This document shows, in pieces, positions 698 to 39,939 of a stretch of 39,939 nt of DNA. The stretch's first letter is position 1; the number at the start of each line of letters is the position of its first letter. The DNA is from a virus. Taxonomy: Duplodnaviria; Heunggongvirae; Uroviricota; Caudoviricetes. The position numbers and the translations under genes are program-made. Location of the stretch: IMG/VR virus record IMGVR_UViG_2671180758_000025, one strand, 5' to 3'. The notes beneath the pieces are model-generated. The model was not told the origin of the DNA. It saw nothing but the letters and a program-made list of their open reading frames with translations, and made no database searches.

Positions 698-1060
698 GGG
701 GCTGATTCTGGATTCGACGGGATTTGCGAAACCCAAGGTGCATGCCGAGGGGCGGTTGGCCTCGTAAAAAGCCGCAAAAAATAGTCGCAAACGACGAAAA
801 CTACGCTTTAGCAGCTTAATAACCTGCTTAGAGCCCTCTCTCCCTAGCCTCCGCTCTTAGGACGGGGATCAAGAGAGGTCAAACCCAAAAGAGATCGCGT
901 GGAAGCCCTGCCTGGGGTTGAAGCGTTAAAACTTAATCAGGCTAGTTTGTTAGTGGCGTGTCCGTCCGCAGCTGGCAAGCGAATGTAAAGACTGACTAAG
1001 CATGTAGTACCGAGGATGTAGGAATTTCGGACGCGGGTTCAACTCCCGCCAGCTCCACCA
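698..1060 (+). ncRNA. ssrA: tmRNA (SsrA), 363 nt
   Basis: Starts GGGGCTGATTCTGGATTCGACGGG and ends ...GGTTCAACTCCCGCCAGCTCCACCA, with the tag-peptide reading frame region in between; matches E. coli ssrA from memory. Confidence 0.95.
1016..1060. repeat. att core, copy 1 (within the 3' end of ssrA)
   Basis: 45 bp ATGTAGGAATTTCGGACGCGGGTTCAACTCCCGCCAGCTCCACCA repeated exactly at 33191-33235. Confidence 0.85.
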
Positions 1061-1183: not shown

Positions 1184-1666
1184 ATGGAAGAACTTCACTT
1201 TGTTTACATCAATGCAAATGGTCGTATCGGTGTTCACTCTATACAGAGCATCAGTTATAGCGAAAATCATATACAGGGCATTTGTAAGAACACCGATCGA
1301 ATAAAAACCTTCCGAAAAGACCGCATTCTTAAACAGTACGATTCACCAGAACAAGCCATTCAGGAATGCGCGTCATTCCTCCCCGAAAACTACTCACATC
1401 TCACTAAGCAGTCTGGTCCGAAAAAAAATACATTCGATGTGTGTTTCACCGGATTTAAGAAAGCAGATAAAGAAAGATTGGTTGATAAGGCGAATGAACA
1501 AGGATTAACGGTAAGAACCTCTGTAACCCAAAGCCTTCAGATGCTCTGTTGCGGTTACAATGCAGGCCCATCAAAAGTATCGGCAGCCAGGATGAAAGGC
1601 ACAATCATCATAGATGAGCCTGGCTTTATACATTTTCTTGAAACGGGTGAGATCCCAGATGAATAA
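1184..1666 (+). CDS. Cargo protein with WYL-like N-terminal and BRCT-like C-terminal region
   Basis: 160-aa ORF with AGAGG upstream of the ATG. N-terminus has a ...GRIGVHSI...KTFRKDRI... pattern like WYL domains; C-terminus (FDVCFTGF...GTIIIDEPGF) resembles the BRCT domain of NAD-dependent ligases. Visibly AT-rich; lies between the att core and ogr. Confidence 0.6.
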   Translation: MEELHFVYINANGRIGVHSIQSISYSENHIQGICKNTDRIKTFRKDRILKQYDSPEQAIQECASFLPENYSHLTKQSGPKKNTFDVCFTGFKKADKERLVDKANEQGLTVRTSVTQSLQMLCCGYNAGPSKVSAARMKGTIIIDEPGFIHFLETGEIPDE

Positions 1667-22365: not shown

Positions 22366-23064
22366 TTATTTGTTTCTTCTTTGTTCACGCCTTGTCTTGG
22401 CTTCGATAAGGCGTTGAGGTTCAGTGTAAAGCCGTTCTAAAAAAAGATAGGTAAAATCTTCAAGATCCTCAGCAGCAGCTTTATCCAAAATACCTTCATG
22501 CGCTCCATCATTTCCGTCATCTTTAACGCATTCAGCTAGTTCCCTTAAAGCTTCAGGCAGTAGATGATTATCAAATAACCACTCCATTCTTAACCCTAGG
22601 CTTCTCCTTATTTTTTGCGCAGGCCCTTGCTCCCCATCAGGAAGAAGTCCTTTTGTGGCATAATCAAGGCAAAGCCTAAACATGGTTGCTGCTGCATTAT
22701 AACAACCTATAGCCAAACATTTCGCCCCTTCCTCATATGCACTATTGATATGCTCAGGTAAGAACTCTGGTGGCTCCTCTACTGCTAAGTCTGCTGGTGA
22801 TATAGGCCTAACAACCTCTGCAACTTCCTTTAAGCCGAATATTCCACTTTCCCAATTATAGCCATCTAAAGTTTTATTTTTCGTTAAAGGTCTGCAAAGA
22901 AACATTGTCGTTTTATGACACTCTCGGCAAACACAATAGACCTCGTACTCGTATGTTTTACCCCCGCCCAATGCATTGTAAACCCTAGTGCAATTCAGCC
23001 CATTAACATCAAACGCTATTTTTTGTGATCCACATCGTGGACAGTCATCCACTAACATAACCAT
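22366..23064 (-). CDS. Hypothetical cargo protein with N-terminal Cys4 zinc ribbon
   Basis: 232-aa ORF; CPRCGS...CVCRECHKT pattern at the N-terminus, then an acidic helical C-terminal region of no family I can name. Visibly AT-rich; converges on Q. Confidence 0.6.
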   Translation of the reverse strand: MVMLVDDCPRCGSQKIAFDVNGLNCTRVYNALGGGKTYEYEVYCVCRECHKTTMFLCRPLTKNKTLDGYNWESGIFGLKEVAEVVRPISPADLAVEEPPEFLPEHINSAYEEGAKCLAIGCYNAAATMFRLCLDYATKGLLPDGEQGPAQKIRRSLGLRMEWLFDNHLLPEALRELAECVKDDGNDGAHEGILDKAAAEDLEDFTYLFLERLYTEPQRLIEAKTRREQRRNK

Positions 23065-23174
23065 GTCAATTACTTCTCCCTATGAAAAAAATGAGTTGAA
23101 AAATTGAATATTCACGACTTAAAAAGCTAGCCTATTTAACACCATAATTTCATTAATTCAACCATGAGCGCGCG

Positions 23175-23193
23175 CTCGTATCCCCGCCACGCC
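23175..23193. other. Putative cos cohesive-end site
   Basis: Minus-strand GGCGTGGCGGGGATACGAG; the first 13 nt match the 186/P2 cohesive-end sequence as I recall it (GGCGTGGCGGGGAAAGCAT / GGCGAGGCGGGGAAAGCAC). Sits in a GC-rich non-coding gap. Confidence 0.35.
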
Positions 23194-23353
23194 TGCCCGC
23201 TTTATGTAGCGGTTTTCATGCGCCTGCATGACATAAGCAAAATCCCGCCACTCCTGGCGGGCCTCAGCTAAAACGATCCTCAAACGATCATGCGGATTCA
23301 TGCGGCATAGACATGCACAATCTCCAAAGCGGGCATCGAGACTTTTTGGAAAC

Positions 23354-23965
23354 CTACGTAACCACAGTTAATGTGTGCATCCTGTCTCGAATTGCATCAC
23401 ACGTCTCATCAAAAAGCTTGGTGATGGTTGTATGGTTCAACTCCGCCTCTTTCCAATAATTTTGCCCGTCAAATTCTGGATCGCTATGCTTAAACGATAT
23501 TGACTCTGAAAGGCATTCCTTCCGGAAACGGTCCAAGATTATATAAACCTCTGGTGAGATGAACGGTTTGTTAGATTCAACACTTGTAACAAAAGTGTTA
23601 AATGCATCAAAAAAAACTTTCAACCTTCTAAATTTTCTCTCTTCAAATGGTTCGTTGGGGTCAACATGATCCAGCGCAGGCCTCAGCTTAAGCACGCTTT
23701 CTCTAGTTTCAAACATCGAATTCCAAATGAGACTATATGCTGATAACTCCTTATCAAAATACGCTTTCGTTACATAAACAGAATTGTCTAACTTAGCCTT
23801 TATTCTTTCATTAGTTGCACTCAGTTGTGATTGAAATTCAGCAATATCTTTGTTTAGCCGCGACTTATATCTTTCTAAATAAACTTTCCCGATCCAAACA
23901 AATATGCCAGATGCAACAAAAGACACCCCACCCAACGAAGCCAGAACTTTAAAGACTAAATCCAT
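23354..23965 (-). CDS. Hypothetical membrane-anchored cargo protein
   Basis: 203-aa ORF with a single N-terminal TM helix (VLASLGGVSFVASGIFVWIG) and a soluble domain of unknown family; AT-rich. Confidence 0.6.
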   Translation of the reverse strand: MDLVFKVLASLGGVSFVASGIFVWIGKVYLERYKSRLNKDIAEFQSQLSATNERIKAKLDNSVYVTKAYFDKELSAYSLIWNSMFETRESVLKLRPALDHVDPNEPFEERKFRRLKVFFDAFNTFVTSVESNKPFISPEVYIILDRFRKECLSESISFKHSDPEFDGQNYWKEAELNHTTITKLFDETCDAIRDRMHTLTVVT

Positions 23966-24013
23966 TGCGCCCCCACCTGCAAAAATAGTATTCCATTATA
24001 AGCTAATACATTT

Positions 24014-24229
24014 TTAATCAAACGGGGGATAATTCGCGTCAACCTCATCACTTCTCTGCTCTACCCTAGTGACTTCCATCAAAAACCCCAGGCCGTCATA
24101 TAGCGAAACGGGGAATTCCAGCTCAAGCCAGAAGCAGTCTTCATAGATGCGGCCCAACCAAAAACCTCCGCCACACTCCTTTGGGCGTTGAAAGAAGACC
24201 CAGTCGCCAAGGGTTAAACGTTCCAGCAC
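24014..24229 (-). CDS. Small hypothetical protein
   Basis: 71-aa ORF between the DinI-like gene and the membrane-anchored gene; coding status uncertain. Confidence 0.4.
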   Translation of the reverse strand: MLERLTLGDWVFFQRPKECGGGFWLGRIYEDCFWLELEFPVSLYDGLGFLMEVTRVEQRSDEVDANYPPFD

Positions 24230-24347
24230 CTAGCCCCGATAAATAATCTGGTGATTACTGTCTTTTTTACCCATGGCTAACGCCTCGCTACTCTCGTTGT
24301 TCAACCTTGCTGACGTCAGATTCAAGTTCTTACATCAGGAACGTTCC

Positions 24348-24581
24348 TTAGTGCAGCCAGCTGTCGTCTTCCCAAACCTGTTGCATAATTTCCATCACCC
24401 GCTTTTTGTCTTCATCAAGCTTTAAGCCACTCAGCTCAACGCCGTTTGCCGACCCTTTACGGATGCGGATAGCGGTCTTGGGATAGATGGGTTGCAGGTT
24501 GCGGTAAAGCTCGGACTCCAGAGCGTCCAGGGTAGACTGGCTAATCTTCTGCTCTTTATCGATCATTATTTCAATGCGCAT
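24348..24581 (-). CDS. DinI-family protein
   Basis: Translation from internal start MRIEIMIDKEQ...EDDSWL aligns with E. coli DinI (MRIEVTIAK...WESADDW) from memory. The supplied ORF extends to 24653. Confidence 0.75.
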   Translation of the reverse strand: MRIEIMIDKEQKISQSTLDALESELYRNLQPIYPKTAIRIRKGSANGVELSGLKLDEDKKRVMEIMQQVWEDDSWLH

Positions 24582-24591
24582 AAAAGTCACC

Positions 24592-24780
24592 TCAGCTGAT
24601 GACATCCATTGAGCGGTTGTATTCGTGGCTTCTGATTTTTGCCATGAGTTCATCAGTCAATTCAGAAACCCACTGCAGGGCCAGCCCCTTCTCTTCATCA
24701 CTACACTCACTAGCCGCTACAAGCTTAAGAAAAAAATCAATGCGCTGGAGCTTCAAAGACTCCAAAAAATAGTCCTGCAT
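24592..24780 (-). CDS. Small SOS-controlled protein (possible antirepressor-like module)
   Basis: 62-aa ORF from the ATG preceded by AGGAGG, with a LexA box 44-59 nt upstream; the supplied ORF extends to 24882. Confidence 0.5.
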   Translation of the reverse strand: MQDYFLESLKLQRIDFFLKLVAASECSDEEKGLALQWVSELTDELMAKIRSHEYNRSMDVIS

Positions 24781-24823
24781 CTTTCCTCCTATGACACCGC
24801 AAACAATACTGTATAGATAACCA

Positions 24824-24839
24824 CTGTTTATATTTACAG
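24824..24839. promoter_or_regulatory. LexA (SOS) box over a putative promoter
   Basis: CTGTTTATATTTACAG (CTGT-N8-ACAG) with A/T-rich flanks, overlapping TTTACA / TATACT-like promoter elements on the minus strand. Confidence 0.6.
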
Positions 24840-24933
24840 TATATAATAATCTTACTGATGTAAAACGTTTTTTTACGTTCATCAGCCTGATATGCCTGGT
24901 ATTATTAAGAGCACGAATTGTTAACCCGCGTAA

Positions 24934-30385: not shown

Positions 30386-30396
30386 GGGGTTTGATT

Positions 30397-31029
30397 ATGA
30401 GTCTAATCAAGGGTGGAAACGATAGTGGGGGTCGTGATGCCATCAACAGGCTGATAAAAGCCTACAATTTCAGCTCACGCCAACAACTCTGCGAACACTT
30501 AAAAGTATCAAAAAGCACCATGGCAAACAGATACTTAAGAGATAGTTTTCCAGCAGAATGGGTAATTCAATGTGCACTAGAAACCGGGATCTCGCTTCTT
30601 TGGTTGGCAACCGGACAGGGTGATATGTATGCAGATAACAGTGACGTAAACATTCTCAAAAATGATAATGACGTCACGATTAGACCACTTTCTAAAATCG
30701 TAGCTCCCAGTATCAAATACACAGAGTTAAGAAATGGTGAACTTCAATCATATGACGAAATTTTATTAGATAGCAGGTTGGTTGAGGGCGACTCGTCAAA
30801 CTATCTATTCATACAAACGACAACAGAAAGTTTTATTGTTGATGTATCTGTAAAACAGATCAGTAATGGCTCCTGGCTTGTTGATATTGATGGAGTGAAA
30901 AGCATCGTAAAAGTAGCTCGAATTCCCGGAAATAAGCTTGTTGTTCATCAGGAAGAAACAACCTTTGAATGTGCAGTTGATGACGTAGACGTTGTAGGGC
31001 GTGTGGTAAAAGTGATTAAGAGCATCTAA
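30397..31029 (+). CDS. cI: CI immunity repressor (186 type)
   Basis: Start at the ATG with AAGGGG 7 nt upstream; N-terminal HTH-like region plus C-terminal domain; followed 3 nt later by int. Confidence 0.8.
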   Translation: MSLIKGGNDSGGRDAINRLIKAYNFSSRQQLCEHLKVSKSTMANRYLRDSFPAEWVIQCALETGISLLWLATGQGDMYADNSDVNILKNDNDVTIRPLSKIVAPSIKYTELRNGELQSYDEILLDSRLVEGDSSNYLFIQTTTESFIVDVSVKQISNGSWLVDIDGVKSIVKVARIPGNKLVVHQEETTFECAVDDVDVVGRVVKVIKSI

Positions 31030-31031
31030 TC

Positions 31032-32060
31032 ATGACGATCAGAAAACAGCCGAACGGAAAGTGGTTATGTGAATGCTACCCAAACGGGAGAGATGGCAAA
31101 CGCGTACGCAAACAATTTGCGACGAAAGGCGAAGCCATTGCGTTTGAGAATTTCACCATGGATGAGGTAAACAAGAAACCTTGGCTGGGAGAAAAGGAAG
31201 ATCGGCGACCACTGTCAGAAGTGATTGAGCAATGGTATTCCCTGTACGGTCAGACACTCGCTGACCCTAAGCGATTAATGGCTAAGCTAAAAATCATTTG
31301 TAATGGGCTTGGCGATCCCATCGCTTCTGAATTGACAGCAGGTGATTTCACAAAGTACCGGGAAGCCAGATTAAAAGGTGAGATCAAAAACGAAGATGGC
31401 GTGCTCATGTCACCGGTTAAGCCCCGCACGGTAAACCTTGAACAACGCAATCTGTCATCGGTGTTCGGTACATTGAAAAAACTAGGGCACTGGTCCGCAC
31501 CAAACCCACTGGCAGGGCTTCCAACCTTCAAAATTGCTGAAGGTGAATTGGCTTTTCTTTCCACGGACGAAATCAAACGCCTGCTTAATGCCTGCGCCGA
31601 ATCTCAAAACACCAGCCTACTAATGATTGCAAAAATATGCCTGGCTACTGGTGCGCGATGGAGTGAAGCAGAAAACCTACAGGGCCACCAAATATCGAAA
31701 TACCGAATTACTTATACAAAGACCAAAGGCAAGAAAAACAGAACAGTACCCATATCACAGGAGCTGTATGACGAACTCCCAAAGAACAGAGGGAAGTTAT
31801 TCTCACCATGTAGAAAAGCCTTTGAACGAGCAGTAAAACGGGCAGGTATAGATCTACCGGAGGGCCAATGCACCCACGTACTGCGCCATACATTCGCTAG
31901 CCATTTTATGATGAACGGCGGAAACATACTCGTGTTGCGCGACATCCTTGGTCACTCGGATATAAAAATGACTATGGTTTATGCACATTTTGCACCTGAT
32001 CATTTAGAGGATGCAGTATCAAAAAACCCTTTATATAGATTAAAATGGACCACACCATGA
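31032..32060 (+). CDS. int: Tyrosine integrase (P2/186 type)
   Basis: 342-aa ORF with the C-terminal catalytic signature ...HVLRHTFASHFMMNGGNILVLRDILGHSDIKMTMVYAHF. Confidence 0.92.
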   Translation: MTIRKQPNGKWLCECYPNGRDGKRVRKQFATKGEAIAFENFTMDEVNKKPWLGEKEDRRPLSEVIEQWYSLYGQTLADPKRLMAKLKIICNGLGDPIASELTAGDFTKYREARLKGEIKNEDGVLMSPVKPRTVNLEQRNLSSVFGTLKKLGHWSAPNPLAGLPTFKIAEGELAFLSTDEIKRLLNACAESQNTSLLMIAKICLATGARWSEAENLQGHQISKYRITYTKTKGKKNRTVPISQELYDELPKNRGKLFSPCRKAFERAVKRAGIDLPEGQCTHVLRHTFASHFMMNGGNILVLRDILGHSDIKMTMVYAHFAPDHLEDAVSKNPLYRLKWTTP

Positions 32061-33076
32061 CTCAAGAATTCGTAATTAGCTATATAAAAAAACCAGAAAC
32101 ATCTACTTTCCTTATAATTTTTTATTTAATATATCTATTTATTGAATACACAAAAAACAAAAATAATAATTATTTCGAAATGACTGAGGAAAGGCTAACA
32201 AAACAAAATTTATTTAAACAATCCATCAGAATACCTATTATCTCATCCTTATACTTCGGTATATTCTCATGGATGGGACACTCTCCTCAATTTGATGCTG
32301 ATGGATTTTCAAACTTCATTGAAATAAGCAAGTTGCCTATCGCTCTTCTTTCCCTTTCGATACCCTTTGTAGCTATAGTCGCTAACATTCACAGAACAAT
32401 ACAAACGGAAAATCAAATTAGGAAAACACAGCAACAGATAGATCTAGTGACTGAGAAAAACCGCAGTGATGCTTACTACGCTCACCTCAAGAATTATTCG
32501 GATATGTTTAAAACGTTACCGTCATTTACCCTTTCTCGTCGAGATAATACAACTTTCGAAAAAGACACAATTAAACTATCTGTAGATCATACCTACTCAT
32601 TATATAAAAAAATATTCACAAAATCCTCAATCTCTACTGGATATAATAATGAAGTTGATAAATCATTCCTTGAAAAATTAGAAAATATATATAACAGCAT
32701 TGGGCATGAAATAGCAAGATACAATCAGCTTTACCCAAAACAAGTTAACATATCTAATTTAGAGAACATTGAAGCACAAGTGGTATGGCTGTGTAGAGAA
32801 CTAGGAGTTAATTATGAAAGAGAAGTCAACAAATTTGAGATTTTTGATCCGATATCAAACTTAGGAATAGAAACATCATTTTCAGATGAAAAAGAAATAA
32901 AAGAAATGCTTCGTGGATTACGAGATATATTGATATCTCTGTACATGCTAATTGATCAAAATACAATTATTTTCCAAGCAACTGCCAATAACGGTGATTT
33001 TTTAGCCAATTATGCTTACGATCCAGATTTTTTGATTTTTAAGGGGATCTTACCTATAGATTCTCAAGGTAAATAA
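32057..33076 (+). CDS. Hypothetical AT-rich membrane protein between int and the att core
   Basis: Three predicted TM segments in the first ~115 residues, then a ~220-aa soluble region of unknown family. Start chosen at the ATG overlapping the int stop (ATGA); an upstream ATG at 32045 is also possible. Confidence 0.6.
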   Translation: MTQEFVISYIKKPETSTFLIIFYLIYLFIEYTKNKNNNYFEMTEERLTKQNLFKQSIRIPIISSLYFGIFSWMGHSPQFDADGFSNFIEISKLPIALLSLSIPFVAIVANIHRTIQTENQIRKTQQQIDLVTEKNRSDAYYAHLKNYSDMFKTLPSFTLSRRDNTTFEKDTIKLSVDHTYSLYKKIFTKSSISTGYNNEVDKSFLEKLENIYNSIGHEIARYNQLYPKQVNISNLENIEAQVVWLCRELGVNYEREVNKFEIFDPISNLGIETSFSDEKEIKEMLRGLRDILISLYMLIDQNTIIFQATANNGDFLANYAYDPDFLIFKGILPIDSQGK

Positions 33077-33190
33077 GTGGCGGCATTTTGGCGGCAGAGC
33101 ATTAAAAATGCCTAAAACGGACAAACACCGCAAAATACTAACATTCTGTTTTTAAATATAAATAACTGTTTTCACTATATTAAAAATGGT

Positions 33191-33235
33191 ATGTAGGAAT
33201 TTCGGACGCGGGTTCAACTCCCGCCAGCTCCACCA
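33191..33235. repeat. att core, copy 2 (junction between the prophage and the second island)
   Basis: Exact 45-bp copy of ssrA positions 1016-1060. Confidence 0.85.
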
Positions 33236-33400
33236 CTTTTTAGTTGTTTGAAGTTCAATGAAGTCTACTAAGCCCACACAGCACAAGCTCTGCGGGCTTT
33301 TTTACGTCTATTGTCGTCCAGTGAGAATTGCTGAGAACTACGAGTTATGGCACCCTGAATGGGACCCATTAAGAAGGGTCCAAAAACCGAGGGTCCCAAA

Positions 33401-34630
33401 ATGGCAAAAATCGCTAAGAAGCTCACTGACACTGAAATCAAAAGCACCAAGCCAGCCGATAAAGAAATCAACTTGTTTGACGGTGATGGTCTGATTCTAC
33501 GAATCGCTCCTTTGGCGAAAGGAGGCAAGAAAAATTGGTATTTCAGGTATGCAGTACCAGTGAGCAAGAAAAGAACCAAAATGAGCCTTGGGACATATCC
33601 TCACCTTACCCTTGCAAGAGCCAGAGCCTTACGTGATGAATATCTCTCCTTTCTGGCAAATGGTGTTGATCCCCAAATCCATAACAACGATAAGGCGAAG
33701 GCATTAAAGAGTGCTACTGAGCACACTCTCCAAGCCGTAGCGCGGAAATGGTTAGATGAGAAGGTAAAGACATCAGGTATCTCACAAGACCATGCAGCAG
33801 ACATCTGGCGCAGCTTAGAGAGAAATGTCTTTCCCGGTCTGGGTAATGTCCCTATCAATGAGATCCGACCTAAGCTCTTAAAACAACACCTTGATCCTAT
33901 TGAGCAACGAGGCGTATTGGAAACTCTACGCCGTATCATTTCACGTCTGAATGAAATCTTCCGGTGGGCAGCTACTGAAGAACTTATTGAGTTCAACCCG
34001 GCTGACAACCTTGGTCAAAGATTCAGTAAACCAAAAAAGCAAAATATGCCTGCCCTTCCCCCAAGCGAATTGCCAAGGTTTATGGAATCTTTGACGAATG
34101 CGTCAATCCGGTTGGAAACACGTATGCTAATTGAATGGCAATTGTTGACATGGGTTCGTCCGGGTGAAGCCGTTCGCGCAAGGTGGTCTGATATTGATAC
34201 AACCAACAGCATTTGGAACATTCCTGCTGATTTCATGAAAATGAAAAAGCTTCACAAAGTTCCTTTGAGTAAAGAAGCTTTGCGCATCCTTGAATTAATG
34301 AAATCAATAAGTGGGCATAGAGAATGGGTTTTCCCCAGCATAAAAGCGCCTCTTAATCATATGCATGAACAAACAGCCAACGCAGCTATCATCCGAATGG
34401 GGTTCGGAGGCGAGCTTGTAGCTCACGGTATGCGTTCTATTGCACGAACAGCGGCAGAGGAGTCTGGTAAATTCAGAGCTGAAGTTCTTGAGGCAGCGCT
34501 TGCCCACTCGAAAAAAGATGAAATTATCGCAGCATACAATCGTGCAGAATATCTGATAGAGCGACAGAGTTTGATGCAATGGTGGAGTGATTACGTTCAA
34601 GCTCAAAGATCAAATGCTCTGGTAGCCTAA
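33401..34630 (+). CDS. intA: P4-type tyrosine integrase (IntA-like, CP4-57 family)
   Basis: Start at MAKIAKKLTDTEIKSTKP... with GAGGG upstream; typical P4-family N-terminus; 165 bp from the att core. The supplied ORF begins at 33359. Confidence 0.88.
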   Translation: MAKIAKKLTDTEIKSTKPADKEINLFDGDGLILRIAPLAKGGKKNWYFRYAVPVSKKRTKMSLGTYPHLTLARARALRDEYLSFLANGVDPQIHNNDKAKALKSATEHTLQAVARKWLDEKVKTSGISQDHAADIWRSLERNVFPGLGNVPINEIRPKLLKQHLDPIEQRGVLETLRRIISRLNEIFRWAATEELIEFNPADNLGQRFSKPKKQNMPALPPSELPRFMESLTNASIRLETRMLIEWQLLTWVRPGEAVRARWSDIDTTNSIWNIPADFMKMKKLHKVPLSKEALRILELMKSISGHREWVFPSIKAPLNHMHEQTANAAIIRMGFGGELVAHGMRSIARTAAEESGKFRAEVLEAALAHSKKDEIIAAYNRAEYLIERQSLMQWWSDYVQAQRSNALVA

Positions 34631-34668
34631 GTATCAGAATAGCTAATATAATCCTGAAGGTAAAGAAA

Positions 34669-35085
34669 ATGGAAACCCTATTCAAAGTTTTTGAAAAATT
34701 TAGTTCCAGACCACTTTTTTTTATTTTTTTCGGACTCTCACTTTGTGAATTTTTTCAGAAACAATCTGTTCTGATGAATCCATCAGCAGATAACATCGCG
34801 AAATTATTCGCAGCCATGATATTAGTTGTTTTTTTTACTTGGGGATTTGAATGGCTAATCTTCAAGTTCAATGTAAACCTTGAACCTCATGATCAAGGCG
34901 ATATTGGACCAACAATTGGAACGGCTACTTTAGCTGTATACTTAGTTTATGCCTTTCACTTTCTCAGTGAAAATCCTGAAGCATTAAATTTAAAGTTATT
35001 AACTAACTCTGGCTTTATATACAGCACAACTCTATTATTATTCTCATTAGAATGCATGAAGCTTAGAAGACTTAAACAAAAATAA
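34669..35085 (+). CDS. Small hypothetical membrane protein
   Basis: 138-aa ORF with 3-4 hydrophobic segments; AT-rich; convergent with the kinase/receiver pair. Confidence 0.45.
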   Translation: METLFKVFEKFSSRPLFFIFFGLSLCEFFQKQSVLMNPSADNIAKLFAAMILVVFFTWGFEWLIFKFNVNLEPHDQGDIGPTIGTATLAVYLVYAFHFLSENPEALNLKLLTNSGFIYSTTLLLFSLECMKLRRLKQK

Positions 35086-35156
35086 ACAACATCATTGTGA
35101 TGATAAATATAAAATAGGCATGGCGAAAAAAAATCACCACGCCTAAAATATAATAA

Positions 35157-36905
35157 TTATGGTAGCATCATTGATACATAATCCACACCAATCCTTGAGC
35201 TATACTGAGACGCTATAGCCTGATATCTTTCTGCATAACCAGTTCTCAGTTGAGATTTAAGTTTGAGTCGGACAGGAACATTTTGCACGTTGCCATCCAT
35301 ATTACTTAAAAACACGGCAGAAATAATATTTTTTTCTTCGCCATCAACTGTTGTTCCATGATTCAACACCACCATATAATCAACAACAGGAAGCGTTTTA
35401 TCCCCTTCGAAAATAGAGAGATATTTTCTTTGATTTTTATGCATTACATATATATATTTCGAATGTTCAGCAAATGGCAATGCTTTACTCTGACTGGCGT
35501 TAAAAAGCTCCAGAACTTTAATGAGCCTGTGCGGACTTAATCTTACATGGTGAGGGTCGTTACCCTGAGTAGGAACCAAATCACATGCCGCAGATACACA
35601 TAAATACCATTTGTTCGACTCTGTATCAAAGAAAATAGTGCCAGTAGAAATATGACCATCTTCAAAATTCTTTGAAGACAAATTCATATTTAAAGCATGA
35701 TACATTTCGTGATAAGTATCATTATTTGATGGCAGATCCATTTTTGAAGAGCAATATTGGAGCAATGCAGCAACTCCGCTGTTAGCGTATTCATTTGAAT
35801 AGCTATCAAAAACACTTTTGATAAATTCATCCAGCGTATTATTATTTTTAAGTCTTTGATAAAGCTCTTCTGATAAATTACCAAATACAAAGTCAATATT
35901 TCTACATCTAATATCAGGCGAGTCTGATTTTAATATCTCATTTAACCACGCAGCTTGACCGTAATGATCGTTAGCCAAATGATTTACAAAAGATAAAGCC
36001 TCAGCTTCGATTGCATTCTGAATTTCAGATTTTATTAACTGATAATAAGATGGTTTCCATTCAATGAGAGAATCATTGAGAGTTTGCCAAATCCTATCTC
36101 CATCGTTTTCATGATCATCTTGAACCTTATGAAATAGGGAGACAAAGATATTACCACATTGAATCCATTTTACTCCGCTTTCATCACCCCGAATGACATT
36201 GCCAGATGTGTTGCTAGAAATAATTGCATTTCTAGACACAGCATATTCTGCAATCATTTTTGCAATGAAGTTTTTATCCTTTTGATCCTCCAACACAGCA
36301 TCATCATGTATTAATCTTTTAATTCTTCTACAAGGCTTACTGTCTTTAATATAGGCTATTGTTTCATCTCTTGTGAGAGCTTTATTACCATTATCATTTA
36401 AGTTCGGTAATACAACGTCTTCCCAATAACTTTGGACATCTTCATTATCGTAGTCAATGATCAAGCTGTTGATATCCAGAGCACCTTTGAGAGTCGATGA
36501 TATCTGCATCCAAACCGTTTCTAAATTCTCTCTAGTATATATTACAATCATATTTAAATGATCGGAGTCTTTCAAATCTTGTAATAGTTTAAGTGTTTTA
36601 TCAGGTGCATTATTATCAAGATGATAATCTACAATAATAAGATCTGATTTTCTAATCCGATCCACATCGAAATTAACAGAACCATTGTCAACATCACAAA
36701 TCATATTTTTAGATTGAAAAAAGCTCTCAAGAGTAGCGGCTCGTTTAGATGAGTCAATTTTGTTGTAGTCTAAATCAACTTCGTTATTCAACGCCCTGAT
36801 TGATTCAGAATACGTCAGAAAATCGTCATCAATCATGACAACGGAACGAATTGCATTTTCGCAGAAAGTTTTCTGGACAAGAGAATTATAATTTGCCACT
36901 GTCAT
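35157..36905 (-). CDS. Receiver (REC)-domain protein with large unrecognised C-terminal domain
   Basis: N-terminus has CheY-like landmarks (VVMIDDD, LIIVDYHL, MIVIYT); about 450 aa follow with no motif I can name. Start chosen 1 nt after the kinase stop, with GGAG upstream; an ATG at 36923 is also possible. Confidence 0.7.
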   Translation of the reverse strand: MTVANYNSLVQKTFCENAIRSVVMIDDDFLTYSESIRALNNEVDLDYNKIDSSKRAATLESFFQSKNMICDVDNGSVNFDVDRIRKSDLIIVDYHLDNNAPDKTLKLLQDLKDSDHLNMIVIYTRENLETVWMQISSTLKGALDINSLIIDYDNEDVQSYWEDVVLPNLNDNGNKALTRDETIAYIKDSKPCRRIKRLIHDDAVLEDQKDKNFIAKMIAEYAVSRNAIISSNTSGNVIRGDESGVKWIQCGNIFVSLFHKVQDDHENDGDRIWQTLNDSLIEWKPSYYQLIKSEIQNAIEAEALSFVNHLANDHYGQAAWLNEILKSDSPDIRCRNIDFVFGNLSEELYQRLKNNNTLDEFIKSVFDSYSNEYANSGVAALLQYCSSKMDLPSNNDTYHEMYHALNMNLSSKNFEDGHISTGTIFFDTESNKWYLCVSAACDLVPTQGNDPHHVRLSPHRLIKVLELFNASQSKALPFAEHSKYIYVMHKNQRKYLSIFEGDKTLPVVDYMVVLNHGTTVDGEEKNIISAVFLSNMDGNVQNVPVRLKLKSQLRTGYAERYQAIASQYSSRIGVDYVSMMLP

Positions 36906-36906
36906 A

Positions 36907-38625
36907 TTAGAACTCCACTCCATTGAACTGGATCACAAAATTAGCGCCATCTTTTATTAAATAGTTATCGCCTTCATCAGGTTCTGAATACCATATTTTA
37001 TGATGTGCAACAGCAAGGTTTTCTCGACATAGATACAGACCTACCCCATGTCCATTTGCTCTTTTGCTATAAAATAGTTCAAATAGTCGCGGGATATCAT
37101 CGGTATCAATTGCCGGACCAGAATTTGCTATGATAACCAAAGAATTCACAAAACCAATATTTATGAGCCTATTATTTGACAGACTGACCCAATACATTGC
37201 ATTGTTGATAATATTAGTAAAAACAGGATAGATCCTTGATGGTATATCTGTTATTGCGATTTGCTTAAACTCTTCACTAAATTCAATAGTTATTCGTTGC
37301 CGTTCGAAACGCTCCCCAAAGAACTTCAGGACATAATCCATGATATTTTTTCCAGTTATTCTCTGCCTGGATTGATAACCTGATATTTTCAAAGGTGATA
37401 AGAAACGTATTTGTTGAGTAAGCGATCTGTGAGCATTTAACGCCAATGAAAAACCAGGGTGTTCTTTTACAGAAGTAGGAAGAGAGTTTAGTCCTCTGGT
37501 TACCATAGAATCCATTTCTTCAAGTTCATGAGATATTATCTCAACACTAATACCTAACTGTGCAAGCGCGTTTAAACTTTTAGCTTTTTCTTCAAAATAT
37601 GAGCGTTCTTCTTCAGATAATGAGAATGCTGAATCTAAGTTTATACCTTCAAATAATCTATCGAGACCTTTTATTATTGATTGATATTTGAAAGTTAGGG
37701 TATCAACTGACTCAACATATAAACTATCGAGCAAATTAAACACATTTTCAATTTGTGAATCATTATCTATTGAATCAACAACTGATATAGTTTTAGCATA
37801 ATAATCACTTCGATCAACCTTTATTTCATCGGCCCATTTTTTTAAAAGAGAATGTATCTTCTCCTCTATCGTGTTATTAAACTTAGTTAGTTTAGAATTA
37901 ATAATACCTTGATTTTTTTCAAGGTGATTTTTCGCTGACAATGAAGGCTCAAGTTTATTTAATTCAGAATCAAGTTTATTAATTGCTAACTTCATTTGTA
38001 GAATATACGCAGAGAATTCATTAAATTTATCTCTGTAGTCTCTATATTTCTCTTCATACATTCCAAGTTTTGGAGGTTTGATAGGCGTTTTAATTTCACT
38101 GCGCAACGCATCTAAGTTTGTAAGATCACTGTCTATAATTTTAAGATAGTTTAAATCTAACGAACCATCAGTTTTATCAAGCTTAGTTTTCAGCCTTTTA
38201 ACAGCCTCCAAGGAAGCATCAAGAACTGGTGTCTGATTCTTCAAAGCTTCTGAAAAACTTTTTTGTGTTGATTTTCGAGCTTGTTGTTGAGCAGATTTTC
38301 TTAACTCTTTTTCACGCTTAACTTGTTCTAAAAGCTCTTTACGGTCATCAGAACGTGAACCAAAAAATCTATCAGCAAGTTCAGTTAACAAATTAGATAT
38401 AATAGTTTTCAGTTCTCTTGCAGCCTGGTTTCTTATGAATCCCTCTCTCCCCGACTTATCTTTCAGCTCTTTATTACTGGATTGAGTAATTCCAATATAA
38501 CCAAAAATCCTTCTATTAGACCAATAATATCGCCCTGCATTCCATGAACGTCTTTCTTCTATCTGGAAGAAATCATTATCTACTCGACCATAAGGTAATA
38601 CTCTCAAGCTATCCCTAAAAATCAT
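36907..38625 (-). CDS. Cytoplasmic histidine-kinase-like protein (HisKA + HATPase_c core); 5' end may be disrupted
   Basis: C-terminal third carries H-box-like ISHELEEM, N-box NIINNAMYW, G1-like ANSGPAID, F-box FELFYS and G2 GHGVGLYLC. No TM helices; Lys/Glu-rich coiled-coil N-terminal region. The frame stays open upstream to the IS3 end. Confidence 0.7.
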   Translation of the reverse strand: MIFRDSLRVLPYGRVDNDFFQIEERRSWNAGRYYWSNRRIFGYIGITQSSNKELKDKSGREGFIRNQAARELKTIISNLLTELADRFFGSRSDDRKELLEQVKREKELRKSAQQQARKSTQKSFSEALKNQTPVLDASLEAVKRLKTKLDKTDGSLDLNYLKIIDSDLTNLDALRSEIKTPIKPPKLGMYEEKYRDYRDKFNEFSAYILQMKLAINKLDSELNKLEPSLSAKNHLEKNQGIINSKLTKFNNTIEEKIHSLLKKWADEIKVDRSDYYAKTISVVDSIDNDSQIENVFNLLDSLYVESVDTLTFKYQSIIKGLDRLFEGINLDSAFSLSEEERSYFEEKAKSLNALAQLGISVEIISHELEEMDSMVTRGLNSLPTSVKEHPGFSLALNAHRSLTQQIRFLSPLKISGYQSRQRITGKNIMDYVLKFFGERFERQRITIEFSEEFKQIAITDIPSRIYPVFTNIINNAMYWVSLSNNRLINIGFVNSLVIIANSGPAIDTDDIPRLFELFYSKRANGHGVGLYLCRENLAVAHHKIWYSEPDEGDNYLIKDGANFVIQFNGVEF

Positions 38626-38776
38626 TAGTCCTGCATACTTTTTGGCCTTAAGATCAAAGTGGGAATGTTCACGTTCAGTATGTGATGTATTTTGTGAAAG
38701 GAATTCAAACGTTCCTATCTGAAGCTCAAATGGGCCGACCCCTGCGTGATCCTACCCACGTAATATGGACACAGGC

Positions 38777-39643
38777 CTAAGCGAGGTTCTTGTTTTCAAA
38801 TTGTTCCGGACTGAGGCCGCCACACCAACTGTGCCGCCGCCACCGATTGTAATCACATTCGATATAATTAAACACCGTTGCCCGCATTATTTCCCGGCTG
38901 ATAAAGTGTTCTCCATGGATACATTCCACTTTCAGCGAATGAAAGAAGCTTTCCACGCAGGCATTATCGTAGCAGCAACCTTTTGCGCTCATACTTCCAC
39001 GCAGATTATGCCGCTTCAGTTGCGCCTGATAATCTGCTGAACAGTACTGGCCTCCACGGTCCGTGTGAACGATAACGTTCCGGGGCCTCTTACGCCGCCA
39101 CAGCGCCATCTGCAGGGCATCGCAGGCCAGTTGCGCCGTCATGCGTGGCGACATTGACCAGCCAATAACGGCACGTGACCACAGGTCAATGACCACTGCC
39201 AGATACAGCCAGCCTTCATCTGTACGTAAGTACGTGATGTCTCCTGCCCACTTCTGGTTCGGGCCACTGGCGTAAAAATCCTGCTCCAACAGATTTTCTG
39301 ACACAGGCAGACCGTGTGCGCGGTAGCAGACCGGGCTGAACTTCCGGGAGGCCTTTGCCCTCAGTCCCTGACGGCGCAGGCTTGCCGCCACGGTTTTTAC
39401 GTTAAAGGGGTAACCCTGAGCACGCAGTTCATCCGTCAGGCGTGGGGCACCGTAACGCTGTTTTGACCGGGTAAAAGCCGCGAGGACAACGCTGTCGCAG
39501 TGTTGGCGGAACTGCTGACGCGTGCTTATCCTTGTCCGCCGCTGACACCACGTATACCAGCCGCCGCGGGCCACCCGGAGCACGCGGCACATTGCTTTGA
39601 TGCTGAACTCAGCCTGATGTTTTTCAATAAAGACATACTTCAT
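38777..39643 (-). CDS. insF: IS3 transposase OrfB (integrase core)
   Basis: 288-aa ORF recognised as IS3 InsF; normally expressed as an OrfAB fusion by -1 frameshift. Confidence 0.9.
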
Positions 39644-39939
39644 TTCAGGCGCTTCGCGAAGTATGTCGCGGCCTTTTGGAGGATAGCCAGCTCTTCATCC
39701 CGTTCTGCCAGCTGGCGTTTGAGACGTGCAATCTCGGTAGACATCTCCAGTTCACGTTCAGAAGACGTCTGCTGATTTTGCTGTTTACTGCGCCAGTTGT
39801 AGAGCTGTGATTCATACAGGCTGAGTTCACGGGCTGCGGCAGTAACACCGATGCGTTCAGCAAGCTTCAGGGCTTCACTGCGAAATTCAGGCGAATGCTG
39901 TTTACGGGGTTTTTTACTGGTTGATACTGTTTTTGTCAT
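39640..39939 (-). CDS. insE: IS3 transposase OrfA (HTH)
   Basis: 99-aa ORF recognised as IS3 InsE; its start codon is the last triplet of the window. Confidence 0.9.

What the first reader, a model, noticed from the sequence alone, without database searches (positions are those of the whole stretch)
32045..33076. Very AT-rich membrane protein gene between int and the att core
A ~340-aa ORF with three N-terminal TM segments and a soluble C-terminal domain starts at the int stop codon (ATGA overlap at 32057) and fills the ~1.1 kb between int and the att core. It is by eye the most AT-rich stretch of the prophage. Coupling to cI-int implies expression in the lysogen, which fits a lysogenic-conversion, exclusion or defence gene.
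Basis: partly seen in the sequence, partly recalled or inferred. Interest (0 to 1): 0.55.

Follow-up and report, generated by a model that had tools for sequence, protein, structure and literature searches.

The report
Uncharacterised prophage membrane protein beside integrase
A real, very AT-rich gene wedged between the integrase gene and the attachment site of a Fels-2/186-like prophage encodes an uncharacterised membrane-anchored protein, most likely a phage-defence or exclusion gene, whose function remains untested.

Summary
A 339-aa ORF (32057-33076; alternative start 32045) overlaps the int stop codon by 4 nt (ATGA). It ends 1 nt before the conserved attP arm and 114 nt before the 45-bp ssrA att core (33191-33235). 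At 30.7% GC it is the most AT-rich kilobase of the whole window (prophage 51.3%).

The protein has no Pfam, NCBIfam or PADLOC match and no structural relative in PDB or BFVD. It nevertheless belongs to a large unnamed family: 1,221 clusters at 50% identity, from Enterobacterales and Pseudomonas. The family has four parts:
- a conserved 2-3 TM module;
- an almost invariant juxtamembrane motif, IHRTIQT;
- a stalk helix whose length changes only in 7-residue steps;
- a fast-diverging, shuffled ~190-aa head, predicted to be cytoplasmic.

In 84 of 97 related loci the order is cI-int-X, with the int stop and X start tightly coupled. Phages with ~93% identical int have this slot empty or filled by unrelated AT-rich ORFs. 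Homologs also sit in the classical P2 gpA-Q defence hotspot.

Best reading: a lysogen-expressed anti-phage cargo gene, probably an abortive-infection-type membrane sensor-effector. It resembles AbiC in architecture only; homology to AbiC was tested and not found. Function and expression are inferred, not shown.

The parts
30391..31029 (+). cI repressor gene, first gene of the lysogenic operon
   Evidence: Pfam Phage_CI_repr 1.4e-32 and Phage_CI_C 2.3e-35.
31032..32060 (+). int, a P2/186-type tyrosine integrase
   Evidence: Pfam Int_N 7.7e-28 and Phage_integrase 7.4e-25. It is 92.9% identical to Fels-2 Int.
32057..33076 (+). Gene X: 339-aa membrane-anchored protein. The alternative start at 32045 would add 4 residues. 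The coordinates include the stop codon.
   Evidence: ORF. ATGA overlap with the int stop. phrog_17460, function unknown, 1.8e-55. 1,221 relatives at the 50% cluster level. AF2 pLDDT 85.2.
32105..32152 (+). TM1 (residues 17-32). Poorly conserved in sequence and absent from some family members.
   Evidence: Hydropathy. AF2 helix 13-36. P0011, P0021 and P0027 start after it.
32228..32389 (+). Conserved TM2, periplasmic loop and TM3 hairpin (residues 58-111). Contains the invariant or near-invariant residues P60, G68, W72, G83, F87, P94, L98 and P103.
   Evidence: Alignments A1 and A2. K+R counts of loop1 3.98, loop2 1.91 and post-TM3 3.97 indicate an N-out/C-in topology.
32390..32491 (+). Juxtamembrane motif H112-R-T-I-Q-T117, heptad stalk helix, and turn motif K134-N-x-x-D-x-x-x-x-H-x-K145
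   Evidence: H112 and Q116 are invariant in 102 sequences. T114, T117, Q120, K134, N135, D138, H143 and K145 are at least 90% conserved. The spacing between the two motifs is 9, 16, 23 or 30 aa in 203 of 204 members.
32504..33073 (+). Variable C-terminal head domain (residues 150-339): a three-helix bundle with two beta-hairpins, predicted to be cytoplasmic
33078..33190 (+). attP arm (the P arm, now part of attR), with the direct repeat TGGCGGCA at 33078-33085 and 33089-33096. This is the 3' boundary of the cargo slot.
   Evidence: Conserved in Fels-2, SEN8, RE-2010 and SopEPhi, starting 1-3 nt after the stop codon of whatever gene precedes it. That the repeats are Int arm-binding sites is inference.
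33191..33235 (+). attR core: a 45-bp copy of the 3' end of ssrA
   Evidence: Exact repeat of 1016-1060. Partial Rfam tmRNA match ending at 33235.
698..1060 (+). ssrA (tmRNA). Its last 45 bp (1016-1060) are the attL core.
   Evidence: ARAGORN tmRNA, tag peptide ANDENYALAA. Alignment.
33285..33299 (+). First terminator-like hairpin downstream of cI-int-X on the + strand, lying just after the att core
   Evidence: Terminator scan. Its position after the ssrA 3'-end copy suggests it is the native ssrA terminator. That reading, and the idea that the operon transcript ends here, are inference.

Best explanation
Gene X is cargo carried in the int-attP cassette slot of a Fels-2/186-like prophage. I infer that it is co-transcribed and translationally coupled with cI-int, so that it is made at a low level in the lysogen.

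The predicted protein sits in the inner membrane with its N-terminus out and C-terminus in. A conserved TM2-loop-TM3 hairpin continues into a heptad-repeat stalk (a = Ile/Leu, d = Thr) that probably bundles several subunits. The stalk carries a fast-evolving, exchangeable cytoplasmic head.

Most likely mechanism, all inferred:
1. The head recognises a component of, or a perturbation caused by, a superinfecting phage.
2. The signal passes through the stalk and the invariant HRTIQT collar to the TM bundle.
3. The TM bundle then compromises the membrane, or sequesters the target at the membrane, and aborts the infection.

This would make it a single-protein, abortive-infection-type sensor-effector that protects the lysogen population and the resident prophage.

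Shown here: the anatomy, conservation pattern, synteny, slot variability and absence of known domains. Inferred: expression, oligomerisation, topology, sensing and the membrane effect.
For: **Position.**
- cI-int-X occurs in 84 of 97 loci.
- The X start lies -14 to +7 nt from the int stop in 57 of 58 distinct junctions, with a 4-nt overlap in 26.
- No terminator-like site precedes the one after the att core.
- In Hafnia, X lies between cI and int.

**The slot behaves as a hotspot.**
- With ~93% identical Int, the slot is empty in Fels-2, SEN8 and MLG42. It holds unrelated AT-rich ORFs elsewhere: 401-403 aa in RE-2010, Cartapus and SopEPhi (the Cartapus copy is annotated by its depositors as a putative RES, NAD+-binding protein), and 506-516 aa in Klebsiella phages.
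- The slot boundaries are sharp.
- int-att is listed as a minor P2 defence hotspot in PMC13586616.

**Other locations of homologs.** They also occupy the canonical gpA-Q (old/tin) hotspot of other P2-like prophages, L090, L094 and L095. One is retained next to a decayed int fragment in Proteus.

**Architecture typical of immune sensor-effectors.**
- The N-terminal core has 55% mean identity and the head 22%, with discordant pairs. P0023 is 72% (core) / 18% (head); P0013 is 53% / 43%. This indicates module shuffling.
- The stalk length is quantised in heptads: 9, 16, 23 or 30 aa in 203 of 204 members.
- K+R counts place the head in the cytoplasm.

**Composition.** The gene is 30.7% GC, and the whole family is rich in the amino acids F, Y, M, I, N and K that AT-rich codons encode, as is typical of horizontally moving defence cargo.
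Against: - There is no hit to any of the 5,027 PADLOC models at E<=1.
- There is no toxin, nuclease, NTPase or pore-forming domain.
- There is no structural relative.
- There are no expression or phenotype data for any family member, and no paper mentions the accessions searched.
- A 31% GC gene in an enterobacterium may be silenced by H-NS (general knowledge), so read-through from the cI promoter is not guaranteed.
- The variability of the head could be relaxed constraint rather than an arms race.
- The monomer model cannot show a pore or an oligomer.
- The conserved periplasmic loop is not explained by a purely cytoplasmic sensing model.
Confidence: 0.4

Rival explanations
1. X is a superinfection-exclusion (Sie) protein. 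The conserved TM hairpin and its conserved periplasmic loop would sit in the inner membrane and block genome entry by incoming phages, for instance by interfering with the channel or host factor used for DNA ejection. The cell would not be killed.
For: - It is a membrane protein in the lysogenic operon, the classical position of sie genes. From my own knowledge, not tested here: lactococcal sie2009 lies between the repressor and int, and S. thermophilus ltp is similarly placed.
- The most conserved parts are membrane-embedded or periplasmic: TM2, the loop with G83 and F87, and TM3.
- Synteny with cI-int.
Against: - The large, fast-diverging and shuffled domain is predicted to be cytoplasmic. 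This is the wrong side of the membrane to meet an incoming tail or ejection proteins.
- No Pfam, PHROG or PADLOC family of known function matches at all, so none annotated as an exclusion protein.
- Known Sie proteins are mostly much smaller (general knowledge).
Confidence: 0.22
2. X is a distant member of the lactococcal AbiC/AbiP group. It would act as AbiC is reported to act, by reducing late or capsid protein production.
For: - The overall design is the same. AbiC is 344 aa, with two N-terminal TM helices and an extramembrane domain of ~228 aa (PMC13064643). My recollection is that abiC is also about 27% GC.
- Two family members carry the source label 'Phage abortive infection protein' in UniRef (P0286, P0352).
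Against: - The PADLOC AbiC model scores 4.3e-133 on a Lactococcus AbiC-like control and finds nothing in X at E<=1.
- PF16872 (putAbiC) is found in the control (1.6e-07) but not in X, P0286, P0352 or the 102 family members scanned.
- Profile-profile hhalign of the X family against the AbiC family gave probability 4.5%.
- The conserved signatures lie in different places: juxtamembrane in X, inside the soluble domain in AbiC.
Confidence: 0.08
3. X is not an anti-phage gene. It could be a lysogenic-conversion or host-physiology factor (envelope stress, colonisation, toxin or colicin tolerance). It could also be an accessory phage function, such as lysis timing or helper-satellite interplay with the P4-type elements that often lie next door.
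For: - No defence-specific domain was found.
- From my own knowledge, P2-like phages carry conversion genes near att, for example ctx in phiCTX.
- A P4-type integrase lies within ~300 bp downstream of X in about 20 of 97 loci, including this window.
Against: - No virulence, transporter or enzyme domain was found.
- The neighbourhood with P4-type integrases is explained by tandem use of the same att site.
- Homologs occur in the gpA-Q defence hotspot.
- Modular head shuffling is more typical of conflict systems.
- X is dispensable for the phage life cycle, since Fels-2 lacks it.
Confidence: 0.2

Closest known systems
Lactococcal AbiC / AbiP (PF16872 putAbiC; PADLOC AbiC, AbiP)
   Same: Both are single-gene proteins of ~340 aa encoded by an AT-rich gene on a mobile element, with N-terminal TM helices followed by a ~200-230-aa extramembrane domain that has no recognisable fold (PMC13064643).
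   Different: No sequence or profile similarity was found. The conserved motifs lie in different regions. X has a heptad-quantised stalk and an invariant HRTIQT collar, which are not seen in the AbiC alignment. The hosts are Proteobacteria rather than Firmicutes.
Cargo of P2-like phage defence hotspots (old/tin gpA-Q locus, Z/fun locus, int-att locus; Rousset et al. 2022, PMC9122126; PMC13586616)
   Same: X sits in the int-att hotspot. Homologs sit in the gpA-Q hotspot. The content varies between near-identical phages, and GC is low.
   Different: X is not one of the systems catalogued in PADLOC 2.0. No phenotype has been reported.
Prophage superinfection-exclusion membrane proteins (P22 SieA, T4 Imm, HK97 gp15, lactococcal Sie2009). 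This comparison is from my own knowledge.
   Same: An inner-membrane protein encoded in or next to the lysogeny module, presumably made in the lysogen.
   Different: X is larger. It has a big, variable domain predicted to be cytoplasmic and a coiled-coil stalk. No homology was detected.
phrog_17460 (PHROGs v4)
   Same: X matches it at 1.8e-55 over residues 24-304, so the family is already clustered as a phage protein family.
   Different: The PHROG carries no functional annotation. It adds no information on mechanism.

Membership tests
AbiC/AbiP (putAbiC) | Match to Pfam PF16872 or to the PADLOC AbiC/AbiP HMMs | tested here: not met
   X has no hit at E<=1, and the 102 family members scanned at E<=0.01 have none. 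The control, Lactococcus p275A AbiC-like, scores AbiC 4.3e-133, AbiP 3.4e-05 and PF16872 1.6e-07.
AbiC/AbiP (putAbiC) | Profile-profile homology to an AbiC family alignment | tested here: not met
   hhalign of A2 (102 sequences) against A3 (16 sequences): probability 4.5%, 30 columns in a TM region only.
AbiC/AbiP (putAbiC) | Architecture: N-terminal TM helices plus a ~230-aa extramembrane domain, ~340 aa in total | tested here: met
   The AF2 model and hydropathy compared with the description in PMC13064643.
AbiC/AbiP (putAbiC) | Abortive-infection phenotype (reduced capsid protein production, cell death) | not testable with these tools
   Needs infection assays.
P2-like phage hotspot cargo (defence hotspot) | Located in a recognised variable locus of a P2-like prophage, with content differing between closely related phages | tested here: met
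   X lies in the int-attP slot. The slot is empty in Fels-2, SEN8 and MLG42 and holds three unrelated gene types in other phages with 90-95% identical Int. Homologs lie in the gpA-Q locus. The hotspot is listed in PMC13586616.
P2-like phage hotspot cargo (defence hotspot) | Recognisable as a known defence system | tested here: not met
   PADLOC-DB 2.0 gave no family at E<=1.
P2-like phage hotspot cargo (defence hotspot) | Protects against phage when expressed | not testable with these tools
   Needs plaque and liquid infection assays.
Superinfection exclusion proteins | Inner-membrane protein encoded in the lysogeny module and expressed in the lysogen | tested here: inconclusive
   Membrane anchoring and operon position are supported. 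Expression was not measured.
Superinfection exclusion proteins | Homology to a known Sie family (Imm, SieA/B, Sie2009, gp15, Cor, Ltp) | tested here: not met
   The Pfam and PHROG scans returned no family of known function.
Serotype-converting cargo next to int-att (gtrABC, oac) | GtrA/GtrB/glucosyltransferase or acyltransferase_3 domains in a polytopic (about 9-10 TM) protein | tested here: not met
   No Pfam hit. Only three hydrophobic segments.
phrog_17460 | Significant match to the PHROG profile | tested here: met
   E = 1.8e-55, residues 24-304 against profile positions 13-292 of 343. Function unknown.

The most novel reading that the evidence does not exclude
The family is a previously unrecognised class of single-protein anti-phage immunity. 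It would be an oligomeric inner-membrane gate (conserved TM hairpin plus HRTIQT collar) held by a heptad-quantised coiled-coil stalk and controlled by an exchangeable cytoplasmic head. Swapping the head would retarget the system. It would be delivered as a cassette translationally coupled to the integrase of Fels-2/186-like phages.
Probability: 0.3. Interest if true: 0.65.

Novelty: new variant of a known kind. Interest (0 to 1): 0.45.

Why it matters
If X protects lysogens, it would add a sizeable unannotated family (over 1,200 clusters at 50% identity) to the anti-phage repertoire of Enterobacterales and Pseudomonas.

It would also establish the int-attP junction of Fels-2-type phages as a precise cassette site. 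All the occupants seen here are unannotated: X, a 401-403-aa ORF type annotated in one record as RES-like, and a 506-516-aa ORF type that may be a nuclease.

The modular design gives directly testable predictions about how a membrane effector could be coupled to a swappable sensor. The modules are a conserved membrane part, a stalk that changes length only in heptads, and a shuffled head.

If X has no phenotype, it remains an ordinary AT-rich prophage ORFan.

Tried and rejected
- **Known domains.** Pfam, NCBIfam, PADLOC and PHROGs were run on X, and Pfam and NCBIfam also on 102 family members. Only phrog_17460 (unknown function) and noise from TM regions came back.
- **AbiC link.** It was prompted by two UniRef labels and by the similar architecture. 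It was rejected as homology by a PADLOC control, by Pfam and by hhalign.
- **Integration or excision function.** Rejected, because phages with ~93% identical Int lack the gene.
- **gtr/oac-type serotype conversion.** Rejected: no such domains and only three TM segments.
- **Internal promoter.** Promoter-like hits inside the ORF are fewer than expected from shuffles (6 against 10.0 +/- 3.6), so they carry no weight.
- **Scan of representative genomes.** It gave only 6 loci because of the narrow peptide pattern used.
- **Literature.** A search for family accessions and the PHROG id returned nothing.
- **Rfam.** The IsrM match at 33226-33303 is far below its gathering score (53 against 376 bits) and was ignored.
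Full report
**1. What is there**

The window holds smpB (1-483) and ssrA (tmRNA, 698-1060). These are followed by a P2/186-like prophage. Its right end reads cI (30391-31029), int (31032-32060), then the ORF in question.

The ORF runs 32045-33076. The in-frame ATG at 32057 overlaps the int stop as ATGA and gives 339 aa. This is the length of most homologs and of the RefSeq model in the 99.3% identical prophage of E. coli 13P477T.

The attachment core is an exact 45-bp repeat of the ssrA 3' end, at 1016-1060 and 33191-33235. A second, P4-type integrase (33359-34630) starts a further low-GC island immediately after it.

The ORF has 30.7% GC (GC3 26%), against 51.3% for the prophage. It is the most AT-rich kilobase of the whole window.

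**2. The protein**

The AlphaFold2 model built from a 37-sequence alignment is confident (pLDDT 85.2). It shows, in order:
- helix 13-36 (TM1);
- helix 51-72 (TM2);
- a helix from ~92 through TM3 that continues without a break to residue 134;
- a return helix, 136-151;
- a head of three long helices and two beta-hairpins.

Modelled alone, the head reaches pLDDT 85.9 and pTM 0.85.

Nothing known matches:
- Pfam, NCBIfam and PADLOC gave no hit.
- BFVD gave nothing.
- The only family hit is phrog_17460, of unknown function (1.8e-55).

**3. The family**

A word-indexed search found 69 clusters. An exhaustive profile search found 1,221 representatives at 50% identity with E<=1e-3, of which 259 have E<=1e-30. 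Named members come from Enterobacterales (Escherichia, Salmonella, Klebsiella, Enterobacter, Citrobacter, Cronobacter, Serratia, Hafnia, Yersinia, Dickeya, Proteus, Providencia, Xenorhabdus and others) and from Pseudomonas. Almost all are labelled 'hypothetical protein'. The family is rare in E. coli: 16 of 5,426 complete genomes have a copy detectable at the DNA level.

Conservation is strikingly uneven.
- The TM2-loop-TM3 hairpin and the residues just after TM3 are the conserved core.
- H112 and Q116 are invariant in 102 diverse sequences.
- Q50, F53, P60, G68, W72, G83, F87, P94, L98, T114, T117, Q120, K134, N135, D138, H143 and K145 are at least 90% conserved.
- The head averages 22% pairwise identity, against 55% for the core.
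- Core and head identities are discordant. P0023 is 72% (core) / 18% (head) relative to X, whereas P0013 is 53% / 43%. The two modules have therefore been recombined.

The distance between the HRTIQT motif and the KN..D motif is 9, 16, 23 or 30 residues in 203 of 204 members (153, 39, 10 and 1 members). These are exact heptad steps. Hydrophobic residues occupy one heptad phase (67-80%) and Thr/Ser the phase three residues later (62-100%). This is the signature of a coiled-coil stalk whose register must be kept, and it implies oligomerisation (inference).

K+R counts are 3.98 in the TM1-TM2 loop, 1.91 in the TM2-TM3 loop, 3.97 just after TM3 and 0.78 at the N-terminus. By the positive-inside rule this gives an N-out/C-in topology, so the variable head should be cytoplasmic. 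Some members lack TM1, which leaves an N-in/C-in hairpin consistent with the same orientation.

**4. Context**

Of 97 loci carrying a family member, 84 have cI-int-X with X starting less than 400 bp after int. Their Int proteins are 54-100% identical to the window's, mostly 66-94%, while X ranges from 29% to 99%. In 58 distinct junctions, a start codon of X lies -14 to +7 nt from the int stop in 57, and the 4-nt overlap is the commonest arrangement (26 junctions). No terminator-like hairpin lies between int and X. The first on that strand is after the att core. In Hafnia the gene sits between cI and int.

Phages with about 93% identical Int show that this is a cassette slot:
- Fels-2, SEN8 and Yersinia phage MLG42 have nothing between int and attP.
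- RE-2010, Cartapus and SopEPhi carry a 401-403-aa soluble ORF at ~34.5% GC. The Cartapus copy is annotated as a putative RES/NAD+-binding protein.
- Klebsiella phages carry a 506-516-aa ORF at 31-34% GC, with an IDAKG stretch that resembles a PD-(D/E)xK nuclease motif. This is my reading and was not tested.
- None of these ORFs matches Pfam or PADLOC.

An alignment of the junctions shows that inter-phage homology resumes 1-3 nt after the stop codon of whichever gene comes first. It resumes at the repeat TGGCGGCA-N3-TGGCGGCA (window 33078-33096) and continues through the ~115-bp arm to the core. The cargo is thus inserted exactly between the int stop and the attP arm.

Family members also occur elsewhere:
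- between the portal gene Q and gpA in other P2-like prophages (L090, L094, L095), which is the classical old/tin defence hotspot (PMC9122126; PMC13586616);
- after gpD in Pseudomonas P2-like prophages;
- near an integrase in a Xenorhabdus prophage;
- next to a 42-codon remnant of int in Proteus.

A 2026 survey reports that 3% of the defence systems of P2-like phages lie between int and att (PMC13586616).

**5. How it most likely works**

*Shown.* X is a dispensable cargo gene in a sharply bounded, variable slot. It is physically coupled to the lysogeny operon. It encodes a membrane-anchored protein with a conserved membrane-and-collar module, a heptad-quantised stalk and a shuffled, divergent head.

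*Inferred.* The gene is expressed with cI-int in lysogens. The only transcript evidence is by analogy: cI and int of the 186-like BTP5 prophage are transcribed in all conditions tested (PMC7067206). The protein oligomerises through the stalk. The cytoplasmic head senses a phage product. The TM module then damages membrane integrity, or traps the target at the membrane, and aborts the infection. I give this abortive-infection-type reading 0.4.

*Rivals.*
- Superinfection exclusion, acting through the conserved membrane and periplasmic part, is the main rival (0.22). It is weakened because the variable domain faces the cytoplasm.
- A non-defence accessory role gets 0.2.
- Distant AbiC membership gets 0.08.

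**6. Comparison with what is known**

The nearest analogue in design is lactococcal AbiC. It is 344 aa, with two TM helices, a ~228-aa extramembrane domain and no assignable fold (PMC13064643). Two family members carry a UniRef label 'Phage abortive infection protein'.

Membership was tested and failed:
- The PADLOC AbiC model and PF16872 recognise a Lactococcus control (4.3e-133 and 1.6e-07) but not X or its relatives.
- Profile-profile comparison gives 4.5% probability.

X may therefore work like AbiC-type proteins, but it is not a demonstrable member.

**7. Verdict**

The interpretation (an accessory gene expressed in lysogens, for exclusion or defence) is the best-supported reading, but it rests on context and architecture only.

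It is a new variant of a known kind: hotspot cargo of P2-like phages that may be anti-phage. It belongs to a large family with no annotation. Interest is moderate (0.45). It is not surprising in kind, but it is a clean and testable candidate with unusually informative anatomy.

Noticed in passing
window 33359-39939: A second integrative element sits in tandem at the same ssrA att copy. It has a P4-type integrase (33359-34630; Arm-DNA-bind_3, Phage_int_M and Phage_integrase domains) followed by a 29-37% GC island. The island holds a small TM ORF (34669-35085), a Response_reg_2 protein (35157-36923, - strand), an HEF_HK + HATPase_c protein (36907-38625, - strand) and an IS3-family transposase (38777-39643, - strand). 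The kinase and receiver pair looks like a conflict-system two-component module, but it gave no PADLOC hit.
   Followed up: partly
L001, L005, L022, L025, L032, L035, L037 and about 13 other loci: In about 20 of 97 related loci, a P4-type integrase starts within ~300 bp after X. In L005 it belongs to a true P4-like satellite (psu, delta, alpA) carrying a 527-aa unknown gene in its own hotspot. Helper phage and satellite are thus repeatedly integrated in tandem at one att site.
   Followed up: partly
L100:3527-4729, L102:3523-4731, L105:3527-4732; L101:5023-6570, L103:3527-5044: Two other unannotated occupants of the same int-attP slot. One is a 401-403-aa ORF in RE-2010, Cartapus and SopEPhi (orfY), with an RES-like motif (RxxxxAGLPCLYLG...WRE). 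The other is a 506-516-aa ORF in Klebsiella phages, with a possible PD-(D/E)xK motif (IDAKG). All are 31-35% GC, abut or overlap the int stop, and have no Pfam or PADLOC hit.
   Followed up: partly
window 22366-24900: The canonical P2 gpA-Q hotspot of this prophage is also low in GC (38-49%). It holds a DUF4145 protein (22366-23064, - strand; weak PD-T7-4 match, 1.2e-06) and an unknown 203-aa ORF (23354-23965, - strand).
   Followed up: partly
window 1184-1666 and 1705-2136: Two small ORFs lie between attL and gpD, the position of tum in phage 186. The first has a weak match to the C-terminus of PADLOC candidate PDC-S48 (1.8e-07). An ORF in the corresponding position of Yersinia phage MLG42 gives the same weak PDC-S48 match and a marginal BRCT hit.
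   Followed up: no
L094:5780-7504 (- strand): In a P2-like prophage whose gpA-Q hotspot holds an X homolog, the same hotspot also carries two paralogous proteins (313 and 248 aa). Each has an N-terminal TM segment and a long charged coiled coil. Their function is unknown.
   Followed up: no
L009:5794-5919 and L010:1508-1633 (Proteus mirabilis): A 42-codon fragment 74% identical to the C-terminus of this Int lies just upstream of an intact 414-aa X homolog, inside an unrelated prophage or defence-like region (PRTase-CE and DUF4747 nearby). The cargo has outlived its original phage.
   Followed up: partly
window 32177 (Met41 of X): Many homologs have a conserved internal Met just before the conserved core (F-x-M-x-E/D...LTxQ). 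NCBI annotates numerous homologs from this Met (309 aa, without TM1). Two isoforms, with 3 TM and 2 TM, from alternative starts are conceivable. No Shine-Dalgarno sequence is evident upstream of this Met in the window.
   Followed up: no
window 33226-33303: Weak Rfam match to IsrM sRNA (53 bits against a gathering score of 376) overlapping the end of the att core and the terminator-like hairpin. Treated as non-significant.
   Followed up: no
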